Below, one piece after another: positions 5,622 through 59,642 of a stretch of DNA of 64,000 nucleotides. The notes beneath the pieces were generated by a model. The model had not been told where the DNA came from. It saw only the letters and a list, made by a program, of their open reading frames with translations, and ran no database searches. How positions within the stretch are numbered: position 1 is the first letter of the stretch; every line of letters begins with the position of its first letter. The stretch is from Octopus sinensis (taxonomy: Eukaryota): NCBI RefSeq assembly GCF_006345805.1, contig NC_043014.1:10664001-10728000 (forward strand). The letters run 5' to 3'. The position numbers and the translations under genes are program-made.

Positions 5622-6000
5622 ATTTCAAAATTTGGCAAAAGCCAGCAATTTCGGAGTAAGGGGATAAGTCGATTACATCAACCCTCAGTACGCAACTGGT
5701 ACTTAATTTGTACCCGAAAGGTTGAAAGGCAAAGTCGACCTCGGCGGAATTTGAACTCAGAACGTAGCGGCAGACGAAATACCGATTTCTTTACTACCCA
5801 CAAGAGGACAAGCAACGACAGACAAACGGATTAAGTCGATTATATCGACCCCAGTGCGTAACTGGTACTTAATATATCGACCACGAAAGGATGAAAGGAA
5901 AAGTCGACCTCGGCGGAATTTGAACTCAGAACGCAGCGGCAGACGAAGTACCACTAAGCATTTCGCCCGGCGTGCTAACGTTTCTGCCAGCTCGCCGCCT
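5622..6000 (-). mobile_element. tRNA-derived SINE dimer (Meta-domain-like core): young-tail unit joined to an old-tail unit
   Basis: Head AGGCGGCGAGCTGGCAGAA, B-box-like GAGTTCAAATTCC, core GCCTTTCATCCTTTCGGGGTCGATAAATTAAGTACCAG; junction at GGTATTTCG. Confidence 0.85.
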
Positions 6001-6699
6001 ATAGCAGATATAATGCGTAAAGGTGTGAACTGCTTTTGCGATATATTGGCCGACGTAAAAACAACACACGGTTATAATCGTCGTGGAGTAGAGGCCATCT
6101 GTTATGAAGTAGGGAAAAGTAGCTGACATAGAGGGGAGAGTAACACGTTCATATTATCAGACTGGTGCTTACTTTATGTAATTACTATTAGTTTAACATT
6201 AACACTATCGAAAAGATTGCAAGCCGCAACAAAAATTTTAGAAAATTTTTTTTAGTAATAAAAAAGAAATAAATGGAAATTTTACCGATGAGTGTGTTAA
6301 ATTATAAGGCACCAAAAGAGAATGACTCTCCCAGACACAACAGAAAATGCAATGGAACTTAGTGGAAAAGAAATAATATTCATGATATCCATTTATGTGT
6401 GTTCAAAATATATGGTCGTTTTGTTGTATCTCGGTAGGAATATTATGCCAATAATCATTTCTGTTATAGGCTCACAGCCTGAAATTTGATAGTGGGAGAA
6501 GATGGTTTGTCAATTACATTAACTCCTCCTCTCCCACACCAGTATTCAATTGGTACTCATTTTATCAACCCCAAAAAGATGTAAAGTAAAATTGAGCTCA
6601 ATGGAAATTGAACTCAGAATGCAAAGACGGATGAAAGACCACTAAGTAGTCTGTCCGGTGTGCTAACGATTCTTTGAACTCAGAACATTGCGAATTTGA

Positions 6700-7555
6700 A
6701 CTCAGAACATTGCGATGGGCGAAATACCTATTTCTTTACTACCCACAAGGGGCTAAACACAGAGAGGACAAACAAGGACAGACAAACGGATTAAGTCGAT
6801 TATATCGACCCCAGTGCGTAACTGGTACTTAATTTATCGACACCGAAAGGATGAAAGGCAAAGTCGACCTCGGCGGAATTTGAACTCAGAATGTAACGGC
6901 AGACGAAATACGGCTACGCATTTCGCCCGGTGTGCTAACGATACTTATTTCTTTACTACCCACAAGGGGCTAAACAGAGAGAGAACAAACAAGGACAAAC
7001 AAACAGATTAAGTCGATTACAGTGCGTAACAGGTACTTAATTTATCGACCCCGAAAGGATGAAAGGCAAAGTCGACCGCGGCGGAATTTGAACTCAGAAC
7101 TTAGCGGCAGGCGAAATACCTAATTCTTTACTACCCACAAGGGGCTAAACACAGAGGGGGCAAACAAGGACAGACAAACGGATTAAGTCGATTACATCGA
7201 CCCAAGTGCGTAACTGGTACTTAATTAATCGACCCCGAAAGGATGAAAGGCAAAGTCGACCTCGGCGGAATTTGAACTCAGAACGTAACGGCAGATGAAA
7301 TACGGCTACGCATTTCGCCCAGCGTGCTAACGTTTCTGCCAGCTCGCCGCCTTGCCAGCTCGCCGCCTAAGCCAGACAAACGGATTAAGTCGATTACATC
7401 GACCCAAGTGCGTAACTGGTACTTAATTAATCGACCCCGAAAGGATGAAAGGCAAAGTCGACCTCGGCGGAATTTGAACTCAGAACGTAACGGCAGGCGA
7501 AATACCGCTAAGCATTTCGCCCGACGTGCTAACGATCTGCCAGTTCGCTGCCGTC
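6700..7555 (-). mobile_element. Head-to-tail array/cluster of the same SINE (about 4 units)
   Basis: Repeated units of about 185 bp, most ending GTGGGTAGTAAAGAA(A/T)TA. Confidence 0.85.
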
Positions 7556-14020: not shown

Positions 14021-14314
14021 CACAAACCTACTAACATGATGTAGAGCGAGTTGGCAGAATCGTTACCGCGCCGGGCAAAATGCTTAGCTGTTGTTCTTTC
14101 TGCTCTTCGGGTTCTGAGTTCAAATGCCGCCGAGATCGACTCTGTCGCGTTCATCCTTCAGAAATCGATAAAATAACTATCAGTTGAGCACTGGAGCCAA
14201 TATAATCAATTAACCAAAAGTTTGAAACATTTTATTTAAAGCTTTTGAAGATTTGACACCAAGCTCCATTCTGGTTGGATTTCACGGTGAAAACAGCGAC
14301 GGTTGTAACTTAAT

Positions 14315-15476
14315 TTAAGGCGGCGAGCTGGCAGAAACGTTAGCACGCCGGGCGAAATGCTTAGCGGTATTTCGTCTGCGTTGCGTTGTGAGTTCAAATT
14401 CCGCCGAGGTCGACTTTGCCTTTCATCCTTTCGGGATCGATAAATTAAGTACCAGTTACGCACTGGGGTCGATGTAATCGACTTAATACCTATGTCTGTC
14501 CTCGTTTGTCCCCTCTGTGTTTAGCCCCTTGTGGGTAATAAAGAAATAGGTATTTCGTCTGCGTTACGTTGTGAGTTCAAATTCCGACGAGGTCGACTTT
14601 GCCTTTCACCCTTTCGGGGTCGATAAATTAAGTATCAGTTACGCACTGGGGTCGATGTAATCGACTTAATACCTATGTCTGTCCTCGTTTGTCCCCTCTG
14701 TGTTTAGCCCCTTGTGGGTAATAAAGAAATAGAAATAGGTATTTCGTCTGCGTTACGTTGTGAGTTCAAATTCCGCTGAGGTCAACTTTGCCTTTCATCC
14801 TTTCGGGGTCGATAAATTAAGTACCAGTTACGCACTGGGGTCGATGTAATCGACTTAATACCTATGTCTGTCCTTGTTTGTCCCCTCTGTGTTTAGCCCC
14901 TTGTGGGTAATAAAGAAATAGGTATTTCGTCTGCATTACGTTGTGAGTTCAAATTCCGACGAGGTCGACTTTGCCTTTCACCCTTTCGGGGTCGATAAAT
15001 TAAGTATCAGTTACGCACTGGGGTCGATGTAATCGACTTAATACCTATGTCTGTCCTCGTTTGTCCCCTCTGTGTTTAGCCCCTTGTGGGTAATAAAGAA
15101 ATAGAAATAGGTATTTCGTCTGCGTTACGTTGTGAGTTCAAATTCCGACGAGGTCGACTTTGCCTTTCATCCTTTCGGGGTCGATAAATTAAGTACCAGT
15201 TACGCACTGGGGTCGAGGTAATCAACTTAATACCTATGTCTGTCCTTGTTTGTCCCCTCTGTGTTTAGCCCCTTGTGGGTAATAAAGAAATAGGTATTTC
15301 GTCTGCGTTACGTTGTGAGTTCAAATTCCGACGAGGTCGACTTTGCCTTTCACCCTTTCGGGGTCGATAAATTAAGTACCAGTTACGCACTGGGGTCGAT
15401 GTAATCGACTTAATACCTATGTCTGTCCTTGTTTGTCCCCCTCTGTGTTTAGCCCCTTGTAGGTAATAAAGAAATA
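14315..15476 (+). mobile_element. Six-unit head-to-tail SINE array with one head and a 14-bp TSD
   Basis: TSD GGTTGTAACTTAAT at 14301-14314 and 15477-15490. Internal units restart at GGTATTTCG with a period of about 185 bp. Confidence 0.92.
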
Positions 15477-15914
15477 GGTTGTAACTTAATACAGCAATTC
15501 ATTAATACAGCAATTCAACGGTTTCCTAATGACAACGATGTTACTTTTATTCTATTAGCTTAGTAATTCATATTAGTACTCATCACTAATAGAGAGGCAA
15601 AGACAAACAGGCAGAGAGAGACAGGGTAAGAGAGGGTGATTGAGAGGGTACGAACGAGAAGTGATATATATACATATATATATACATTTGTGTGTGTGTG
15701 TGTGAGAGAGACAAATGCAGAGGTTCAACATGAAAAAGGATACGATCAATGGAAACTAACTATAGCCTTTTACAAAGATAGTTAATCTGCTAGAGTCATT
15801 TAAGCTCCGTATAGACATCTTCTCATTGGCTTGTATTATTATATTTCTGTGACTTCACGGGTAGGTACCGCTGTTCCACTCCAATTAGTACCGCGCGCAC
15901 CCATGACTCCAGCA

Positions 15915-16599: not shown

Positions 16600-17100
16600 C
16601 TAAAGAATTAAAAGACAGAAGACAGTAGGATAAAGCGAAATAAACATTGGTGCTCTGCCCAACGCAGAAACTTGTGTAGCTACTCAGAGGTATCGCAAGG
16701 TCTTCTTACTCCAACTCATTGTTGACATCATTTCTGTATTTTCAACAGACATCTCAGGATCACAAGCGGTTTGTCCCTGGGCCTGTACGCTTCGCCTGTT
16801 CAGGGCACTGAAGACTGAATTAGTCTTTGCCAGCGAAAGGGTTCCACCTGCAGTTTCTTGTAAACCACAAAAACACTGAACTGTTCTGTGCTGCGATATG
16901 ACTTTGGTGACTTTCTTAAATTTTTTCGTGTTCCAGATCAATCTTCTGCAGTTAACAGTGTATCGATTTAGCTGGAAAGCTGAAGGAACTGACTTCAATA
17001 AGGAACGAAACCGCGTGTCATCCCTTGACAAGTCCTCGTCAAGCAAGTCCCAATATTTGGTTTTCTTTTGTAATTTTCACAGAAAATATATTTGAAGTTC
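16600..17100 (-). mobile_element. HERO-like (RLE-clade) non-LTR retrotransposon 3' fragment
   Basis: Frameshift-joined translation KTKYWDLLDEDLSR/G*HAVSFLIEVSSFSFPAKS...SSVFLWFTRNCRW fits the K..KY.DL...GW....EVG.RGF...S..LW..R C-terminal motif. Confidence 0.6.
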
Positions 17101-17106
17101 CGTGCA

Positions 17107-17311
17107 ACAGCACGGAATTTTGTCAGTGAACAGGTCACGGTCACGAAACAACGAAAATATTTTGACAAATTAAATTTAAATGTTGAAGTGAATCTAACGG
17201 TTTTTCTGTGTTTCTTAAATGGCTTATAAGCACTTTCCACGCTGCAATTGTTTTCGTTCCAGAACACGATCTCAGATCAGGTCACTTGCTATGCAAGTAC
17301 ATCTCCGTAAT
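17107..17311. repeat. Unclassified ~205-bp interspersed repeat (also 21035-21241 and 21271-21472), possibly a PLE pLTR
   Basis: Three near-identical copies ending GCAAGTACATCTCCGTAATA, one next to (TA)n. Confidence 0.7.
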
Positions 17312-17339: not shown

Positions 17340-18365
17340 ACTATATATTGGTGCTTTTAACGATCAGAGAATATTCTGTATTGCAAACAACTTGCACATG
17401 CAAGTGCTACCAGTAAAAAAAACTCTGCATACCGAAAGCCAGCAAGTGTATGGGGTCATCAGGAGAGAATGCGCGCCGTTTCGGGGCCTACCTGTCGACG
17501 GCATCAATGCACACCGACCACCCCTCACTGATATGAGGCTCCGCTTGCTAGATCAACTGGTTATCAAATAAAGCTCAATATTCTTTTAGCCATCGCTGAT
17601 CCAATGGTTAGCCTTCTCCACTGTAGTTTGGATATCGGTCATGGTGGTATTGACTTTACGAAGGCGGCGAGCTGGCAGAAACGTTAGCACGCCGGGCGAA
17701 ATACGTAGCCGTATTTCGTCTGCCATTACGTTGTGAGTTCAAATTCCGCCGAGGTCAACTTTGTCTTTTGTCCTTCCGGAGTCGATAAATTAAGTACCAG
17801 TTACGCACTGGGGTCGATATAATCGACATAATCCGTTTGTCTGTCCTTGTTTGTCCGCTCTGTGTTTATCCCCTTGTGGGCAATAAAGAAATAGGTATTT
17901 CTTCTGCCGTTACGTTCTGAGTTCAAATTCCGCCGAGGTCGACTTTGTCTTTCATCCTTCCGTAGTCGATAAATTAAGTACCAGTTACGCACTGGGGTCG
18001 ATATAATCGACTTAATCCGTTTGTCTGTCCTTGTTTGTCCTCTCTGTGTTTAACCCCTTGTGGGCAATAAAGAAATAGGTATTTCGTCTGCTGCTACGTT
18101 CTGAGTTCAAATTCCGCCGAGGTCAACTTTGCCTTTCCTCCTTTCGGAGTCGATAAATTAAGTACCGGTTACGCACTGGGGTCGATATAATCGACTTAAT
18201 CCGTGTGTCTGTCCTTGTTTGTCCTCTCTGTGTCTAGCCCACTGTGGGTAGTAAAGAAATAGGTATTGACTTTACGATGAGTCGGGCCTAACGATAACAA
18301 CCGTTGTCTCACACTGTGTCCAAATTTGGCCTGGAGGTTTATACCCATCAAATAATGCATGGACA
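17340..18365 (-). mobile_element. Second HERO-like 3' fragment, interrupted by a SINE array
   Basis: Removing the array plus one TSD restores the frame GHSVRQRLLSLGPTHRKVNTTMTDIQTTVEKANHWI. A structured 3' UTR follows. Confidence 0.6.
17662..18261 (+). mobile_element. Three-unit SINE array with 16-bp TSD
   Basis: TSD GGTATTGACTTTACGA at 17646-17661 and 18262-18277. Confidence 0.92.
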
Positions 18366-20960: not shown

Positions 20961-21614
20961 CAGACAAAATGCCTGATAATAGCTATGTCACTATACATTG
21001 GGTTTCAAATACCTCAAGTTCAATAATACTATAACAACAGCATGGAATTTTGTCAGTGAACAGGTCGCGGTCTCAAAGCGACGAAAATATTTTGGTAAAT
21101 TAAATTTAAATGTTGAAGTGAATCTAAAGGTTTTTGTGTGTTTCTTAAATGGCTTATAAACACCTTTCACGCTGCAATTGTTTTTGTTCCAGCACACGAT
21201 CTCAGATCAGGTCACTTGCTATGCAAGTACATCTCCGTAATATATACATACATATATATATATGTATATATAGCACGGAATTTTGTTAGTGAACTGGTTG
21301 CGGTCTCAAAGCAACGAAAATATTTTGGCAAATTATATTTAAGTGTGGAAGTGAATCTAGCGGTTTTGTGTGTTTCTTAAATGGCTTATAAACACCATCC
21401 ATGCTGCAATTGTTTTCGTTCCAGAACACGATCTCAGATCAGGTCACTTGCTATGCAAGTACATCTCCGTAATAATACTAGAAATTACTAGAAAGAAATT
21501 AAACCCTCCTTCCTGTGTAATAACAGTGATTGCATGGTCACTGCTTCTCTATATATCAATGGAAAGTAGATTTGACTAGCATGCGGTCAGTGGGTCCCTA
21601 CAGCTGATGAGGTG

Positions 21615-34979: not shown

Positions 34980-35380
34980 ATAGGAGTGGCTGTGTGGTAA
35001 GTAGTTTGCTTACCAACCACATGGTTCCGGGTTCAGTCCCACTGCGTGGAACCTTGGGTAGGTGTCTTCTACTATAGCCTCGGGCCGACCAAAGCCTTGT
35101 GAGTGAATTTGGTTGACGGAAACTGAAAGAAGCCCATCGTACATATGTATATGTGTGTGTGTGTGTGTATGTTTTTGTGTCTGTGTTTGTCCCCCTAACA
35201 TCGCTCGACAACGGATGCTGGTGTGTTTGCGTCCCCGTAAGTTAGCGGTTCGGCAAAAGAGACCGATAGAATCAGTACTAGGCTTACAAAGAATAAATCC
35301 TGGGGTCGATTTGCTCGACTAAAGACGGTGCTCCAGCATGGCCACAGTCAAACGACTGAAACAAGTAAATGAGTAAAAGA
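34980..35380 (+). mobile_element. CORE/V-like SINE, near full length
   Basis: A box TGGCTGTGTGG, B-box-like GGTTCAGTCCC, GAGTAAAAG tail. Confidence 0.88.
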
Positions 35381-36055: not shown

Positions 36056-36496
36056 TCCTACATAATTTAATAACGAATTGCGCATTATTTAAAACAGACA
36101 TTCAAGTCCACGCCTCCAATATGAATGTACTTTTGGATATATGCATTATGTGTAATTATGTAAGCATACATATGCACACACTAGCACGAACCCATGCACA
36201 TACACACACAAATATATATGCATGCGTGTGTGTGTGAAAATATTCATATATTTATGTATGTATGTATTTTATGTGTGTATTTGTGTACACATGTGAAGCT
36301 ATCATTATGTCCATACACACATACACACACATGCGTGTACACACACATGCATACACACACACATACACGCATACATGTACACACACATGCATGTTCACAG
36401 ATACACACACGCACGTGCATGTATTTGTTGTATGCAAAACATTTGAAATGTAAAATATACCTTTTTATTAAACATGCGCAGTTGTAGTTGTGCAGA

Positions 36497-37048
36497 AGCA
36501 GGCGGAGCTGTGCAGGCGCAGGCGTGGCTGTGCATGCACAGGCGTGGCTGTGCATGCGCAGGCGTAGCTGTGCATGTGCAAGTATGGCTGTATAGCCGCA
36601 GGCGTAGCTGTGCAGATACAGGCGTAGCTGTGCAGGCGCGGGCGTGGCTGTGCAAGTGCAGGCATGGTTGTGCAACCGCAGGCGTGGCTGTACAGGCGCA
36701 GGGGTGGCTGTGCAAGTGCAGGCATGGTTGTGCAGCCGCAGGCGTGGCTGTGCAGATACAGGCGTGGCTGCGCAGGTGCAGGTGTGGCTGTGCAAGTGCA
36801 GGCTTGCTTGGGCGGAAGCAGGCGTGGCTGTGCAGGCGCAGGCGTGGCTGTGCAGGCGTGGCTGTGCAGGCTCAGGCGTGACTGTGCAGGCTCAGGCGTG
36901 GCTGTGCAGGCGCAGGCGTGGCTGTGCAGGCGCAGGCGTGGCTGTGCAGGCGCAGGTGTGGCTGTGCAGGCTCAGGCGTGGCTGTGCAGGTGCAGACGTA
37001 GTTGTGCATGCGCAGGTTTGACTATGCAGGTACAGACGTGGCTGTGCG
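36497..37048 (+). repeat. 20-bp minisatellite GGCGCAGGCGTGGCTGTGCA (about 27 units), continuous with a SINE body (37030-37360)
   Basis: The unit equals the SINE 5' end GGCGCAGG(A/C)GTGGCTGTG; the last unit runs into CACATGGTTCTGGGTTCAGTCCCACTGCG. Confidence 0.85.
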
Positions 37049-41789: not shown

Positions 41790-42298
41790 TTCCAAATTCC
41801 GCCGAGGTCGACTTTGCCTTCCATCCTTTCGGGGTCGATTAAATAAGTACCGGTTACGCACTGGGGTCGATATAATCGACTCAATCCGTTTGTCTGTCCT
41901 TATTTGTTCCCCTCTGTGTGTAGCCCCTTGTGAGCAATAAAGAAATAAGAAACGTTAGCATGCCGGGCGAAATGCTTAGCGGTATTTCGTCTGCCGCTAC
42001 GTTCTGAGTTCAAATACCGCCGAGGTCGACTTTGCCTTTCATCCTTTCGGGGTCGATTAAATAAGTACCAGTTACGCACAGGGGTCGATATAATCGACTT
42101 AATCCGTGTGTCTGTCCTTGTTTGCCCCCTCTATGTTTAGCCCCTTGTGGGTAGTAAAGAAATAGGTATTTCATCTGCCGTTACGTTCTGAGTTCAAATT
42201 CGCCGAAGTCGATTTTGCCTTTCGTCTTTCGGGGTCGATCTAATCGACTGGCCTCCTCCCCAAAAATTTCGGGCCTTGTACCTAGAGTAAAGAAGAAT
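41790..42298 (+). mobile_element. SINE array: two young-tail units followed by an old-tail unit
   Basis: Junctions GAAATA|AGAAACGTTAGC (about 41947) and GAAATA|GGTATTTC (about 42164). Confidence 0.85.
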
Positions 42299-52902: not shown

Positions 52903-53002
52903 NNNNNNNNNNNNNNNNNNNNNNNNNNNNNNNNNNNNNNNNNNNNNNNNNNNNNNNNNNNNNNNNNNNNNNNNNNNNNNNNNNNNNNNNNNNNNNNNNN
53001 NN
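52903..53002. other. Assembly gap (100 N)
   Basis: Run of N. Confidence 1.
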
Positions 53003-55436: not shown

Positions 55437-55459
55437 GGATAAAAATGTGAAAATTTGGA

Positions 55460-57209
55460 GGGTTCAGACGTGTTGTTTTTCTGAGCGAGTTATTTGGAGT
55501 TATTCAGGTGTGATTATTCTGGTGTGTTTGTTTCGAGTGAGGAGGTGGTGAGTTCGAGTTCTTTGGAGGACGTGGAATAATTTTTTTTTCCGGAAAATGC
55601 AAGAACAGACTTACGCGCGAGCGGCAGGCAGAGGCCTGGTTGCCGGTGAGCTGGAAATGGAGGAGGTGGTGGTTGAACAGAGGACCCTACAGAAGTATTT
55701 CGACAGTTTAAAGAGGGAGGGTGACTGCGTAAGAGTCACACCGTCCGAGGAGGAGGAAGGAAAGCAGTGCAGAGAAGCGTACTATAACGTACAGGACGTG
55801 GTGTGTGGAGTCGAAAAAGATTGCAAGTAGCGGAAATGGAAGAAGAGTAGAAAGGTTGTCTGAAGGAAATTGAGGGAGAACCCACATTTTTCAAAAGAGG
55901 AAAGAAGTATGCCACGGTAGTGGTATATTTTGAAACAGAAAATGAGGCCAAAAAGAACGCAACAAGACTTTTGAAATCGGATAAGTGGACTCTTGCTACC
56001 AAGTTACTGCGGAAGGAGAGCAGGAGGATGAGAATCAATAGAATCTCACCCGAATTTAATATGGAAAGGTTGCTGGCAGCAGTGTGTTTAACTGCAAGGA
56101 TGATGTGGAGGTACTGAAGGTGGAGAGGAAAGAAGTCAGCGGAGGTGAAATGGTGGGGATATACGGTGCAGGTTCTCGCGCCAATTACCGTGCGAGACTG
56201 TACAACATCCCGGAGGAGCTGGTCTACCCTGACGAGACACGACTCCGAGTTGTGGTTAGAGGGAAGACCCCCAATTTGCTACAATTGTAAATCAAGGGGC
56301 CACATGAAGGATGTGTGCCCGCGGAGAAAAAACTAAAGCACCGGAGGTTGTGATGGAGGACGCGTGTGTGGAGGGAGGCGAACGGAGCGAAGAGAGGAGG
56401 AGGAAATACGAATGGAGGAGCGGTTAAGTGAGGGAAGAACGAGAGAGGCACAGAAGAAGAAAAGACGGAAGACAGGAAGAGATCAAGGGTGGAATCACCA
56501 CCGAAGGATAAAAAAAAAAGAAAGAAAAAATAAAGCAAGATAGCAGAAGAGAGAGAAGACAAAGAACAGGAAGTAAAAGAGAAGGTGAGAGAGCGGCCAA
56601 GGACAGAGTTTGAAAAAGAATGGGAGACCAGAGTGAACGAGCAATTGGAATCGTGCAGATATGGAAGAAGGCCTACAGGAAAAAACTTGAAGGCGGTTGT
56701 AATGTATATCAAGAATACAGAAGTGGAGAAGGACTTGTAGGTAAGAAAGGGTTGGTCAGGGTGAAGGTGAACCCAAAGCTGTATGGTGACGACGTGAAAG
56801 CGTCATTATAGACAAAGAGGACATACATAAAACTAAAAAAAGATGTTTAATGGTATGCACATAACGCACTATGTGCGGTATGATAAATTGCCAGATGTTA
56901 TAGAGCATACGGACCTGTTGGATATATGACGGACGAGCGTCTAATGTAAAAGAATCAGAATTATAAGATTTAAAGTTGTATTTTGAATATATGTAATGTT
57001 GACATGTAGAATTGTAAAATTATTGTAAATGTAAAATGTAATGTATAATTGTATTTTAAACGGACTGCGAGTTGGGGGCTCGTAAGCCGTTCCATCTCAT
57101 TACATCTAATTCATTTTTTACTTCATATTTTTTTTTACTCTATGTACCCCATGTCCCGTCTTGTAATGTCCCCCTCTTCGTGGCCCCTTAGTGGGTAATA
57201 AAAAAACAG
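55460..57209 (+). mobile_element. ORF1-only (HAL1-like) non-autonomous L1/Tx1-type retroelement, copy 1
   Basis: GT-rich 5' UTR, one gag-like ORF, about 280-bp 3' UTR, no EN/RT; flanked by GGA(T/C)AA.AATGTGAAAATTTGGA. Confidence 0.7.
55597..56929 (+). pseudogene. Frameshifted ORF1/gag-like protein: RRM-like region, CCHC zinc knuckle, charged tail
   Basis: MQEQTYARAA...; GKKYATVVVYFETENEA; VEGRPPICYNCKSRGHMKDVCP (CX2CX4HX4C at about 56277-56318); stitched from several track ORFs. Confidence 0.75.
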
Positions 57210-57232
57210 GACAACAATGTGAAAATTTGGAG

Positions 57233-59009
57233 AGTTCAGACGTGTTATTTTTCTGAGCGAGTTGATTGGATTTATTCAGGTGTGATTATTCTGGTGTGTT
57301 TATTTCAAGTGAAGAGGTGGTGAGTTCGAATTCGTTGGAGGACGTGGAATAATTTTTTTTTCCGGAAAATGCAAGAACAGACTTACGCGCGAGCGGCAGG
57401 CAGAGGCCTGGTTGCCGGTGAGCTGGAGATGGAGGAGGTGGTGGTCGAACAGAAGACCCTACAGAAGTATTTCGACACAGTCTAAAGAGGGAGGGTGACT
57501 GCGTAAGAGTCACACCGTCCGAGGAGGAGGAGGAAAAGCGGAAAGCAGTGCAGAGAAGCGTACTATAACGTACAGGACGTGGTGTGTGGAGAGTCGAAAA
57601 AAGAGATTGAAGTAGCGGAAATGGAAGAAGTAGAAAGGTGCTGAAGGAAATTGAGGGGAGAGAACCCACATTTTTCAAAAGAGGAAAGAAGTATGCCACG
57701 GTAGTGGGTATATTTTGAACAGAAAAATGAGGCAAAAAAGAACGCAACAAGACTTTTGAAATCGGATAAGTGGACTTTGCTACCAAGTTACTGCGGAAGG
57801 AGAGCAGTGAGGATGAGAATCAATAGAATCTCACCCGAATTTAATATGGAAAGGTTGCTGGCAGCAGTGCTGTTTAACTGCAAGGATGATGTGGAAGTAC
57901 TGAAGGTGGAGAAGTCAGCGGAGGTGAAATGGTGGGGATATACGGTTGCAGGTTCTCGCGCACATTACCGTGCGAGACCTGTACAACATCCCGGAGGAGC
58001 TGGTCTACCCTGACGAGACACGGCTCCGAGTTGTGGTAGAGGGGAAGACCCCCAATTTGCTACAATTGTAAGTCGAGGGGCCACAGAAGAATGTGTGCCC
58101 GCGAGAAAAAGCAAAAGCACCAGTGGTTGTGATGGAGGAGTGTAGAGATGCGTGTGTGGAGTGGAGGAGGCGAAAGCGGAGGAAATACGAATGGAGGAGC
58201 CAGTTGGATGAGGAAGAAGAACGAGTGAGTGCAGAAGAAGAAAAGACAGAAGACAGGAAGAGATCAAGGTGGAATCACCACCGAAAGATCAAAAAAAAGA
58301 AAAAAAAATTAAAAGCAAGATAGCAGAAGAGAGAGAAGAGACAAAGAACAGGAAGTAAAAAGAGGAAGGCGAGAGAGCGGCCAAGGACACAGAGTTGAAA
58401 AGAATGGGGAGACAAGAGTGAACGAGCAATTGGAATCATGCAAATATGGAAGAAGGCCTACAGGAAAAAACTTGAAGGCCAGTTGTAATGTATATCAAGA
58501 ATACAGAAGTGGAGAGAGACTTGTAGGTAAGAAAGGGTTGGTCGGGGTGAAGGTGAACCCAAAGCTGTATGGTGACGACGTGAAAGGCGTCATCATATAG
58601 ACAAAGAGACATATATAAAATTAAAAAAGATGTTTAATGCTATGCACATAACGCATTATGTGCGGTGATGATCATGATAAATTGCCAGATGTTATAGAGC
58701 AAACGGACCTGTTGGATTAAATGACGGACGAGCGTCTAATATAAAAGAATTAGAATTAATTGTAAAATTTAAAGTTGTATTTTGAATATATGTAATATGG
58801 ACATGTAGAAGTGTAAAAAATTATTGTAACTGTAAAATTGTATGTATAATTGTATTTTAAACGGAACTGCGAGTTGGGGGTTCGTAAGCCGTTCCATCTC
58901 ATTACATCTAATCTCATTTTACTTCATATTTTATTTTATTTTATGTACCCCATGTCTCGTCTTGTAATGTCCCCCTCTTCGTGGCCCCTTAGTGGGTAAT
59001 AAAGAAACA
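57233..59009 (+). mobile_element. ORF1-only element, copy 2 (ORF about 57369-58720, frameshifted)
   Basis: Colinear, high-identity paralog of copy 1 with different indels. Confidence 0.72.
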
Positions 59010-59031: not shown

Positions 59032-59642
59032 AAGGCGGCGAGCTGGCAGAACCGTTAGCATGCCGTGCGAAATGTGTAGCGGTATTTCGTCTGCGTTACG
59101 TTGTGAGTTCAAATTCCGCCGAGGTCGACTTTGCCTTTCATCCTTTCGGGGTCGATAAATTAAGTACCAGTTACGAACTGGGGTCGATGTCATCGACTTA
59201 ATCCCTTTGTCTGTACTTGCTTGTCCCCTCTGTGTTTAGCCCCTTGTGGGTAATAAAGAAATAGGTATTTCGTCCTGCCGTTACGTTCTGAGTTCAAATT
59301 CCGCCGAGGTCGACTTTGCCTTTCATCTTTTCGGAGTAGATCAATTAAGTACAATTACGTACAGTTCGCACTGGGGTCGATGTCATCGACTTAATCCCTT
59401 TGTCTGTCCTGCTTGTCCCCTCTGTGTTAGCCCCTTGTGGGTAATAGAAAGAAATAGGTATTTCGTCTGCCTCGTTACGTTCTGAGTTCAAATTCCGCCG
59501 AGGTCGACTTTGCCTTTCATCCTTTCGGGGTCGATAAATTAAGTACCAGTTACGTACTGGGGTCGATGTCATCGACTTAATCCCTTTGTCTGTCCTTGTT
59601 TGTCCCCTCTATGTTTAGCCCCTTGTGGGCAATAAAGAAATA
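59032..59642 (+). mobile_element. Three-unit SINE array directly after the shared target motif
   Basis: One head; units restart at GGTATTTCG; array-specific variants GATGTCATCGAC and ATCCCTTTGTC. Confidence 0.9.

What the first reader, a model, noticed from the sequence alone, without database searches (positions are those of the whole stretch)
14301..15490. Self-extending SINE arrays: one head, one TSD, fixed re-entry point
Seen: six units here and three each at 17662 and 59032. Every internal unit starts at GGTATTTCG right after ...AAAGAAATA, and the genomic TSDs start with similar bases (GGTTGT..., GGTATT...). Units share array-private variants (ATACCTATGTC here, ATCCCTTTGTC at 59 kb). Inference: the endonuclease prefers GGTA/GGTT-like sites and the SINE carries its own target, so it is re-cut and re-primed repeatedly, or whole multimers are retrotransposed. 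Units 2 and 4 share extra variants, so later duplication also contributed.
Basis: partly seen in the sequence, partly recalled or inferred. Interest (0 to 1): 0.78.

Follow-up and report, generated by a model that had tools for sequence, protein, structure and literature searches.

The report
Self-inserting SINE arrays, SINE-targeting LINE
This is a six-unit chain of a short jumping element, one of tens of thousands of such joints in this animal genome, likely begun when new copies inserted into older copies at one fixed base and likely lengthened by local DNA duplication; a young long retrotransposon sits at that same base, so the small element itself serves as a landing pad.

Summary
Observation confirmed: one 48-nt head, six 183-189-nt bodies starting at SINE nt 49, and one 14-bp TSD (14301-15490). 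The pattern is genome-wide: 39,661 exact tail-to-nt-49 junctions. TSDs of 55 insertions give a (C)|GGTA motif, and nt 48|49 is the best match in the SINE. A young full-length Tx1-like LINE sits at this base with a visible 14-bp TSD: 27 of 28 loci checked, base 49 concordant on both sides in 20 of 20. Dimers are as divergent as random copies. Many chains end in an older SINE family, are enclosed by its TSD, and carry the youngest unit beside the head. Arrays therefore likely start by target-primed self-insertion with a homology-guided 5' joint that drops the new head. This six-mer was then mostly expanded by DNA duplication (units 2 and 4 differ at one base). Corrections: the two cited 'private' variants are subfamily markers, and a second entry point exists at nt 16. 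The exact partner LINE was not found. Verdict: new variant of known kinds (Alu self-insertion hotspot, SINEU/Tx1, clam SINE multimers).

The parts
14301..14314 (+). Left target-site duplication GGTTGTAACTTAAT (followed by 3 extra bases TTA, 14315-14317)
14318..14365 (+). Single SINE head (nt 1-48), with a box-A-like motif at 14329-14339 and the minor entry site at nt 16
   Evidence: box consensus recalled
14366..14548 (+). Unit 1 body and tail (nt 49-231). Starts at AGC|GGTATT, the best target-motif match in the SINE; box-B-like GTTCAAATTC at 14392-14401; LINE-derived 3' tail of about 60 nt ending AATAAAGAAATA
14549..14737 (+). Unit 2 (nt 49-231 plus 6-nt GAAATA tail repeat)
14738..14920 (+). 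Unit 3
14921..15109 (+). Unit 4, one base different from unit 2 and with the same tail repeat: local duplicate
15110..15292 (+). Unit 5
15293..15476 (+). Unit 6 (last); its end, the TSD and the unique flank are bridged by contigs of two other runs
   Evidence: X1 record 8, X4 record 23
15477..15490 (+). Right target-site duplication
17646..18277 (+). Three-unit array (17662-18261) with 16-bp TSD GGTATTGACTTTACGA; C-type head but G at both internal junctions
59033..59642 (+). Three-unit array, private mark GATGTCATC, no outer TSD found; abuts an ORF1-only element
5665..6000 (-). Composite: head + young unit + last unit (from nt 49) ending in an older tail type
6548..7552 (-). Complex chain of the same SINE, units entering at nt 1, 49/50 and 21
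41793..42239 (+). Chain with one unit entering at nt 16 and a last unit from nt 49 with an older tail
55459..59009 (+). Two head-to-tail 1.75-kb ORF1-only non-LTR elements (frameshifted here), sharing the SINE's 3' tail and separated by copies of a 22-bp spacer

Best explanation
The array is a tRNA-type SINE chain with one head and six bodies that was likely seeded by target-primed insertion of new SINE copies into an existing copy at nt 48|49, and was likely expanded afterwards by local DNA duplication. Step 1 (motif shown, enzyme inferred): a Tx1/L1-type partner endonuclease prefers (C)|GGTA-like sites, and the SINE's best such site is nt 48|49. Step 2 (shown for a LINE, inferred for the SINE): the second cut falls about 14 nt downstream, so the left target end carries SINE nt 49-62. 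Step 3 (inferred): because the incoming cDNA contains the same nt 49-62, it anneals there and primes the second strand. The new head is discarded or sometimes replaces the old one, and the TSD is hidden inside the homology. Each round adds one body next to the head and leaves a new tail|GGTATT site. Step 4 (pattern shown, mechanism inferred): once two or more bodies are in tandem, unequal crossing-over or conversion lengthens and homogenises the chain; one 372-bp duplication accounts for units 2 and 4.
For: TSD left copies, n=55: G30 G33 T43 A44 at +1..+4 and C22 at -1, with no homology between the tail and the upstream target (58 of 90 elements had a TSD, 1 of 90 in the null; 3 simple-repeat TSDs dropped). 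That matrix ranks nt 49 first on both strands, 8.77 bits. LINE beta (APE endonuclease + RT + zf-RVT): 92 of the first 100 listed tails are followed by SINE nt 49 (counted by eye); 27 of 28 LINE loci by BLAST; 20 of 20 fetched copies read [SINE..62]-LINE-[SINE 49..] with base 49 equal on both sides; one sits at an internal junction. 19 of 33 young-on-old composites are enclosed by an old-family TSD (null 0). Mutation load rises from first unit 0.043 to middle 0.069 to last 0.091; head load tracks the last unit (rho 0.50, p=0.03), not its own body (0.02). 7 of 24 first units keep the old host's nt 62-66, against 2 of 97 readable young monomers. Dimer distance 0.105 against 0.110 for random pairs, p=0.45; all 4 arrays of 6 or more units hold identical pairs. 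This array: mean 0.027 against 0.059 for same-subfamily pairs.
Against: The general hidden-TSD test is weak: only 3 of 46 variants at nt 50-61 are shared with the left copy in non-duplicate pairs, the same rate as the body control, 15 of 248. 8 of 24 old-tail last units begin with young-type nt 62-66 (controls 2 of 36 typed A or Y, p=0.004), and 2 dimers are swapped; a clean nick at nt 49 does not predict this. SINE junctions carry G about 130 times more often than C (39,661 against about 300, scaled from 11 C among the first 100 of 2,733 non-G), although 36 of 83 young monomer heads are C-type and LINE beta uses C and G about equally. The age gradient in all-young arrays is only a trend (18 vs 10, p=0.08). 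The LINE with the exact SINE tail was not found. For this particular six-mer the insertion seed is inferred from the genome-wide pattern, not seen. The sample comes mostly from the start of contig C1, and part of it was chosen by junction patterns.
Confidence: 0.7

Rival explanations
1. Junction-bearing read-through RNAs propagate the structure. Transcripts from existing arrays carry tail|GGTATTTCG, anneal to a homologous SINE and prime at or downstream of nt 49, or whole multimers are retrotransposed, so the fixed entry point is inherited rather than re-cut each time.
For: No TTTT terminator lies inside the array; the first is at 15545. G excess at junctions; C-type heads over G junctions, as in the 17662 array; young-type nt 62-66 at the start of 8 of 24 old last units, and swapped dimers.
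Against: No second locus carries this array's haplotype (12 matches to its rare double variant: 3 here, 3 unrelated singles, 6 in three near-identical contigs of one unrelated 8-mer). Mixed-age chains inside an old TSD are not whole-multimer insertions. The site is an independent endonuclease target. This route can add to the best explanation but does not start the process.
Confidence: 0.16
2. Purely DNA-level origin: a monomer whose right TSD starts GGTATT recombines or slips against its internal GGTATTT, giving head + 2 bodies, then expands.
For: Long arrays are clearly duplicated (the 8-mer L341 propagates a mutated junction); 12 of 24 adjacent pairs in trimers are unusually close.
Against: Only 8 of 55 dimer pairs fall under the random 5th percentile; composites join two different SINE families of different age.
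Confidence: 0.06
3. Template jumping in one reverse-transcription event: the RT leaves one SINE RNA at nt 49 and restarts on the 3' end of another, or of the same or a circular RNA.
For: One head and one outer TSD; 7 of 50 composites ending in a non-young unit have a young C-type head, several with the old outer TSD intact. R2 jumps templates in vivo (PMC3414825, passages).
Against: All units would be the same age, but first < middle < last in mutation load and the head tracks the last unit. Gives no reason why a LINE sits at the same base with a TSD.
Confidence: 0.06
4. Assembly or read artefact.
For: No public contig spans the whole array.
Against: Units differ by 1-7 substitutions with CpG-type changes. 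39,661 junctions. The right end is bridged to unique flank in two other runs.
Confidence: 0.02

Closest known systems
Alu self-insertion hotspot (Levy, Schwartz & Ast 2010, PMC2836564; passages read)
   Same: A SINE inserts into its own family at one nucleotide, in sense orientation, at the best endonuclease-like site in the element.
   Different: Those are nested Alus within a target Alu, driven by L1 and poly(A). Here the added unit has no head and no visible TSD, about a third of tails are affected, and the site is G-rich.
Blood clam TSD1-(SINE)n-TSD1 multimers (Martelossi et al. 2024, PMC11481361; passages read)
   Same: First unit with a full tRNA head, later units head-truncated at the same position, one outer TSD, in a mollusc.
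   Different: Their inner units have truncated tails, only 64 elements lay in arrays of 4-15 units, and unequal recombination between TSDs was suggested. The passages read give no target motif, age gradient or targeting LINE.
SINEU-3 and target-specific Tx1 LINEs of crocodilians (Kojima 2015, PMC4494074; passages read)
   Same: SINE with target preference, tandem copies by sequential insertion, Tx1 LINEs that target other repeats.
   Different: The target is a foreign element (Mariner-N4), and tandem copies sandwich a TSD. Here the target is the SINE itself. Targets listed in the passages are DNA transposons, LTR elements, U2/U5/5S, satellites and microsatellites, not a SINE.
R2 homology-guided 5' joining (Eickbush et al. 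2013, PMC3774820; passages read)
   Same: cDNA that carries target sequence anneals to the target and gives uniform 5' junctions; this is the proposed step 3 and fits the uniform, full-length LINE-beta junctions.
   Different: R2 uses a restriction-like endonuclease and rDNA. Here the homology is the element's own body, and the step is inferred, not assayed.
SINE-derived satellites in squamates (Vassetzky et al. 2023, PMC10702118; passages read)
   Same: Tandem repeats of part of a SINE, more uniform in longer arrays.
   Different: Explained there mainly by unequal recombination. Here the repeat boundary is an insertion target and dimers are not duplicates.

Membership tests
tRNA-derived SINE | Short (<700 bp), interspersed, at least 100 copies | tested here: met
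   231 nt; 91,341 exact tail 24-mers; definition from PMC3531059 passages
tRNA-derived SINE | tRNA-related head with Pol III boxes A and B | tested here: inconclusive
   Box-A-like at nt 12 and box-B-like at nt 75 against a recalled consensus; ARAGORN and Rfam found no tRNA
tRNA-derived SINE | 3' tail shared with a LINE | tested here: met
   Tail aligns with three LINE families and an ORF1-only element; an autonomous LINE with the identical tail was not found
tRNA-derived SINE | Variable-length TSDs | tested here: met
   58 of 90 elements, 12-24 bp
tRNA-derived SINE | Transcribed by Pol III | not testable with these tools
   Only contigs were served; no RNA run held more than 0.14 of the words
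Named octopus SINE families (OK/OR1/OR2) | Identity to a published consensus | not testable with these tools
   SINEBase supplement not readable; no Repbase or Dfam; resemblance is recalled only
Tx1 clade LINE (for LINE beta) | ORF1 with zinc knuckle; ORF2 with APE endonuclease, RT and C-terminal zinc motif; L1-group affinity | tested here: met
   PF00098, PF03372, PF00078, PF13966; best solved relative human L1 ORF2, E 2e-64
Tx1 clade LINE (for LINE beta) | Sequence-specific insertion with fixed TSD | tested here: met
Tx1 clade LINE (for LINE beta) | RT phylogeny groups with reference Tx1 elements | not tested
   No named Tx1 reference among 23 homologues; 'Tx1-like' is an inference from architecture and targeting
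SINEU-3-type tandem insertion | Tandem copies separated by a visible TSD | tested here: not met
   Tail joins nt 49 directly
Alu-type self-insertion hotspot | Single-nucleotide, sense-orientation hotspot at the best endonuclease site | tested here: met
   antisense self-insertions were not counted
Alu-type self-insertion hotspot | Inserted copy keeps its own 5' end (nested, two heads) | tested here: not met
   0 head-TSD-head structures in all loci held; only 4 of 218 internal units start at nt 1-8
SINE-derived satellite | Tandem units from part of a SINE, homogenised within long arrays | tested here: met
   True for the 4 arrays of 6 or more units, not for dimers

The most novel reading that the evidence does not exclude
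This genome holds a guild of young site-specific Tx1-like LINEs that use SINE heads as their multicopy safe target: beta at nt 48|49 of this SINE, between promoter boxes A and B, and delta at a fixed site in a second SINE. The SINE, mobilised by this machinery, extends itself seamlessly at that site, and read-through RNAs from arrays carry the junction into new rounds. A SINE would thus be both parasite and landing pad of its LINE, and one subfamily's G49C change would be an escape from self-insertion.
Probability: 0.45. Interest if true: 0.75.

Novelty: new variant of a known kind. Interest (0 to 1): 0.62.

Why it matters
It gives a concrete, testable route from an interspersed repeat to tandem repeats at genome scale, about 40,000 junctions and roughly a third of young tails, in a lineage where SINEs are a major genome fraction. 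It adds a SINE to the known targets of site-specific APE-type LINEs, with intact copies 99% alike that could be assayed. Head-less, TSD-less self-insertions would be miscounted as truncated or duplicated copies, which biases SINE copy numbers, subfamily trees (head and body come from different donors) and age estimates.

Tried and rejected
Array-private status of ATACCTATGTC and ATCCCTTTGTC: rejected. Microhomology between the tail AATA and the upstream target as the cause of site choice: rejected, mismatch 41-46 of 55 at -1/-2. RNA-templated GGT in right TSD copies of unique-site insertions: 4-5 cases against 1, not significant (read). The 1.75-kb element at 55-59 kb as the autonomous partner: rejected; it has ORF1 only, and none of 20 diverged relatives fetched showed an intact linked ORF2. 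Longer-protein search with its ORF1: nothing. Two negative-pattern searches for a LINE with the exact SINE tail returned, judged from the listings, mostly SINE mutants; the 3 candidates fetched were an internally deleted SINE subfamily. tRNA and Rfam scans: nothing useful. Public runs were contigs only: none spans the array; the left flank was covered only by X2, which may be this DNA's source; no empty allele was seen. The tail hairpin folds but is not significant alone (z -0.8 and 0.2). Earlier-findings look-up: empty. Literature searches showed no paper on these arrays or on a SINE-targeting LINE in octopus. Subscription journals, Repbase and Dfam were not searchable, and the SINEBase supplement could not be seen, so the families may already be catalogued.

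Full report
Observation. The sequence shows one 48-nt head (14318-14365) and six bodies starting at GGTATTTC (14366, 14549, 14738, 14921, 15110, 15293), enclosed by a perfect 14-bp duplication at 14301-14314 and 15477-15490. The arrays at 17662 (16-bp TSD) and 59033 (no TSD found) are real, and the window holds further chains at 5665-6000, 6548-7552 and 41793-42239. The monomer is 231 nt with box-A-like and box-B-like motifs at nt 12 and 75 (consensus recalled); no tRNA or Rfam family was detected. The genome G000 is 2.72 Gb. Its repeats look octopus-like (recalled, not tested).

Scale. Exact counts in G000: young tail 91,341; tail joined to nt 49 with G 39,661, with A/C/T 2,733; tail joined to nt 16 2,875. 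Reversed controls were 0. Among 97 exact tails in tail-ascertained loci, 31 were followed by nt 48-49, 4 by nt 16, 3 by other SINE positions and 59 by other sequence, a few of which are degraded or tail-duplicated junctions.

Target preference. 58 of 90 elements with both ends had a TSD (null 1 of 90), 12-24 bp long. In 55 left copies (3 simple-repeat TSDs dropped) positions +1..+4 are G30, G33, T43, A44 and -1 is C in 22; the tail end does not match the upstream target. A matrix from these outer TSDs ranks AGC|GGTATT at nt 49 first on both strands of the SINE (8.77 bits). The regenerated junction scores 6.16, the C-type head 5.65 and nt 16 only 1.7, so the matrix does not explain the minor site.

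A positive control. ORF2 fragments in the fetched loci led to LINE 'beta': 158 exact tails, of which 92 of the first 100 listed are followed by SINE nt 49 (counted by eye). Of 30 loci cut out, 2 were SINE copies; 27 of the 28 LINEs were followed by nt 49-51 and one by a degraded copy; 26 extended at least 1.5 kb. I fetched 20 of those 26, mainly the least diverged. All were full length (about 5.3 kb). Nineteen read SINE head to nt 58-62, LINE, then SINE from nt 49. One sat at an internal tail|GGTATT junction. Base 49 matched on both sides in 20 of 20, C or G, and the host SINE's own TSD often enclosed the whole. Three copies keep a 1134-aa ORF2 with APE endonuclease, RT and zf-RVT, and ORF1 has a zinc knuckle. 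So nt 48|49 is a real insertion site with a 14-bp stagger. Some left TSD copies carry variants shared between loci, which suggests the cDNA brings target sequence with it, as proposed for R2 (PMC3774820, passages). Beta's tail is similar but not identical to the SINE's, and it uses C49 targets freely while SINE junctions are almost all G, so beta is probably a relative of the main partner, which I did not find.

How arrays start. Many chains end in an older SINE family with the same head and body but another tail. 19 of 33 such composites are enclosed by an AATAT-type TSD like that of old monomers (13 of 20; null 0). Mutation load at nt 68-124 is 0.043 in first units (young monomers 0.041), 0.069 in middle and 0.091 in last units. 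Head load (0.093) lies between young (0.060) and old (0.133) monomers and correlates with the last unit, not with its own body. 7 of 24 first units keep the old family's nt 62-66, against 2 of 97 readable young monomers; in L192 the first and last units share private bases there. Dimer partners are as distant as random copies (0.105 vs 0.110). No head-TSD-head structure was found. These results fit repeated insertion at nt 49 with the cDNA joined through the homologous overhang; that joint is inferred. Young C-type heads on 7 of 50 composites ending in a non-young unit show the head is sometimes replaced.

Results against. The general test for shared variants at nt 50-61 gave 3 of 46 in non-duplicate pairs, no more than the body control (15 of 248); strict target selection would blunt this test, since hit copies have few mismatches at nt 50-55 (0.015 vs 0.093). 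8 of 24 old last units start with young-type nt 62-66, and two dimers are swapped. G exceeds C at SINE junctions about 130-fold. The array has no TTTT, so read-through RNAs carrying the junction could exist and contribute; conversion between neighbours could also explain these cases. The age gradient in all-young arrays is only a trend (p=0.08). Samples came mostly from the first part of contig C1, and some were chosen by junction patterns, so the start counts (160 at nt 49-51 and 46 at nt 16-17 of 218) are not genome frequencies.

How this array grew. All four arrays of six or more units contain identical pairs over nt 68-225. Here the mean distance is 0.027 against 0.059 between same-subfamily copies; units 2 and 4 differ at one base and share a 6-nt tail repeat; the 372-bp period scores 97% against 94% for 183 bp. 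One 372-bp duplication with a breakpoint early in a unit fits, with later CpG changes (inference). The rare double variant occurs elsewhere only in unrelated loci, so there is no sign that this multimer transposed. Contigs of two other runs bridge unit 6, the TSD and the flank; none spans the array.

Comparison. It works like the Alu self-insertion hotspot (PMC2836564), SINEU-3/Tx1 sequential insertion (PMC4494074) and R2-type 5' joining (PMC3774820). It resembles clam TSD-(SINE)n-TSD multimers (PMC11481361) and SINE-derived satellites (PMC10702118). All were read as passages only; PMC13282606 was read for its first third, PMC3414825, PMC4758252, PMC8967140 and PMC3531059 as passages. It fails the nested-copy and sandwiched-TSD features of the first two. 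Nine searches showed no description of these arrays or of a SINE-targeting LINE here; Repbase, Dfam, subscription papers and one supplement were out of reach.

Verdict. Real, genome-wide, mechanistically coherent: a new variant of known kinds. Best explanation 0.70; interest 0.62, owed mostly to the SINE-targeting LINEs and the scale.

Noticed in passing
L323 (G000:C1:181451900-181461899) and L285-L334: Young full-length Tx1-like LINE 'beta', copies up to 99.9% alike, inserted at nt 48|49 of this SINE with a 14-bp TSD; 20 of 20 fetched copies were full length, unusual for a LINE.
   Followed up: yes
L347-L376: Second Tx1-like family 'delta' (ORF2 65% identical to beta): 30 of 30 tails are followed by AAGTAGCTTG-like sequence, 26 continuing into the head of a second tRNA-like SINE. 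That SINE occurs in the window near 34996 (+), 46792 (-) and 50846 (-).
   Followed up: partly
L069, L109, L118, L276: Third Tx1-like family 'alpha' with a related tail, each followed by (TATC)n-type sequence, i.e. microsatellite-targeting.
   Followed up: partly
window 55459-59009; L001-L012, L225-L284: 1.75-kb ORF1-only non-LTR element (440-460 aa, zinc knuckle, ZCCHC3-like features) with the same terminal 25 nt as the SINE, in head-to-tail arrays at many loci; 11,127 first-look candidates genome-wide. Resembles half-L1 (HAL1) elements (recalled).
   Followed up: partly
tails of SINE, alpha, beta, delta: All end in a 4-bp stem with a 5-6 nt loop just before an A-rich end, with stem changes between families (GCCC/GGGY, AGCC/GGCT, TGCC/GGCA); candidate ORF2 recognition hairpin.
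   Followed up: partly
SINE nt 44 and 49 (e.g. window 17705-17710): A common young subfamily has G44/C49, which lowers the self-target score from 8.8 to 5.7 bits; it is rarely seen at SINE junctions but is hit by LINE beta.
   Followed up: partly
L341-L346 (G000:C613, C614, C11699): Eight-unit array present on three near-identical small contigs, with a mutated junction (GTTATTT) copied through six units and a two-unit period.
   Followed up: partly
L377-L379: SINE subfamily with an internal deletion of about 28 nt between body and tail, each with a TSD.
   Followed up: no
window 36489-37047: 20-bp minisatellite, 28 copies, resembling the 5' end of the second SINE (resemblance recalled).
   Followed up: no
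window 21039-21478 and about 17090-17300: 232-bp tandem repeat with a related copy near 17.1 kb; identity not examined.
   Followed up: no
window 52903-53002: 100-N assembly gap.
   Followed up: no
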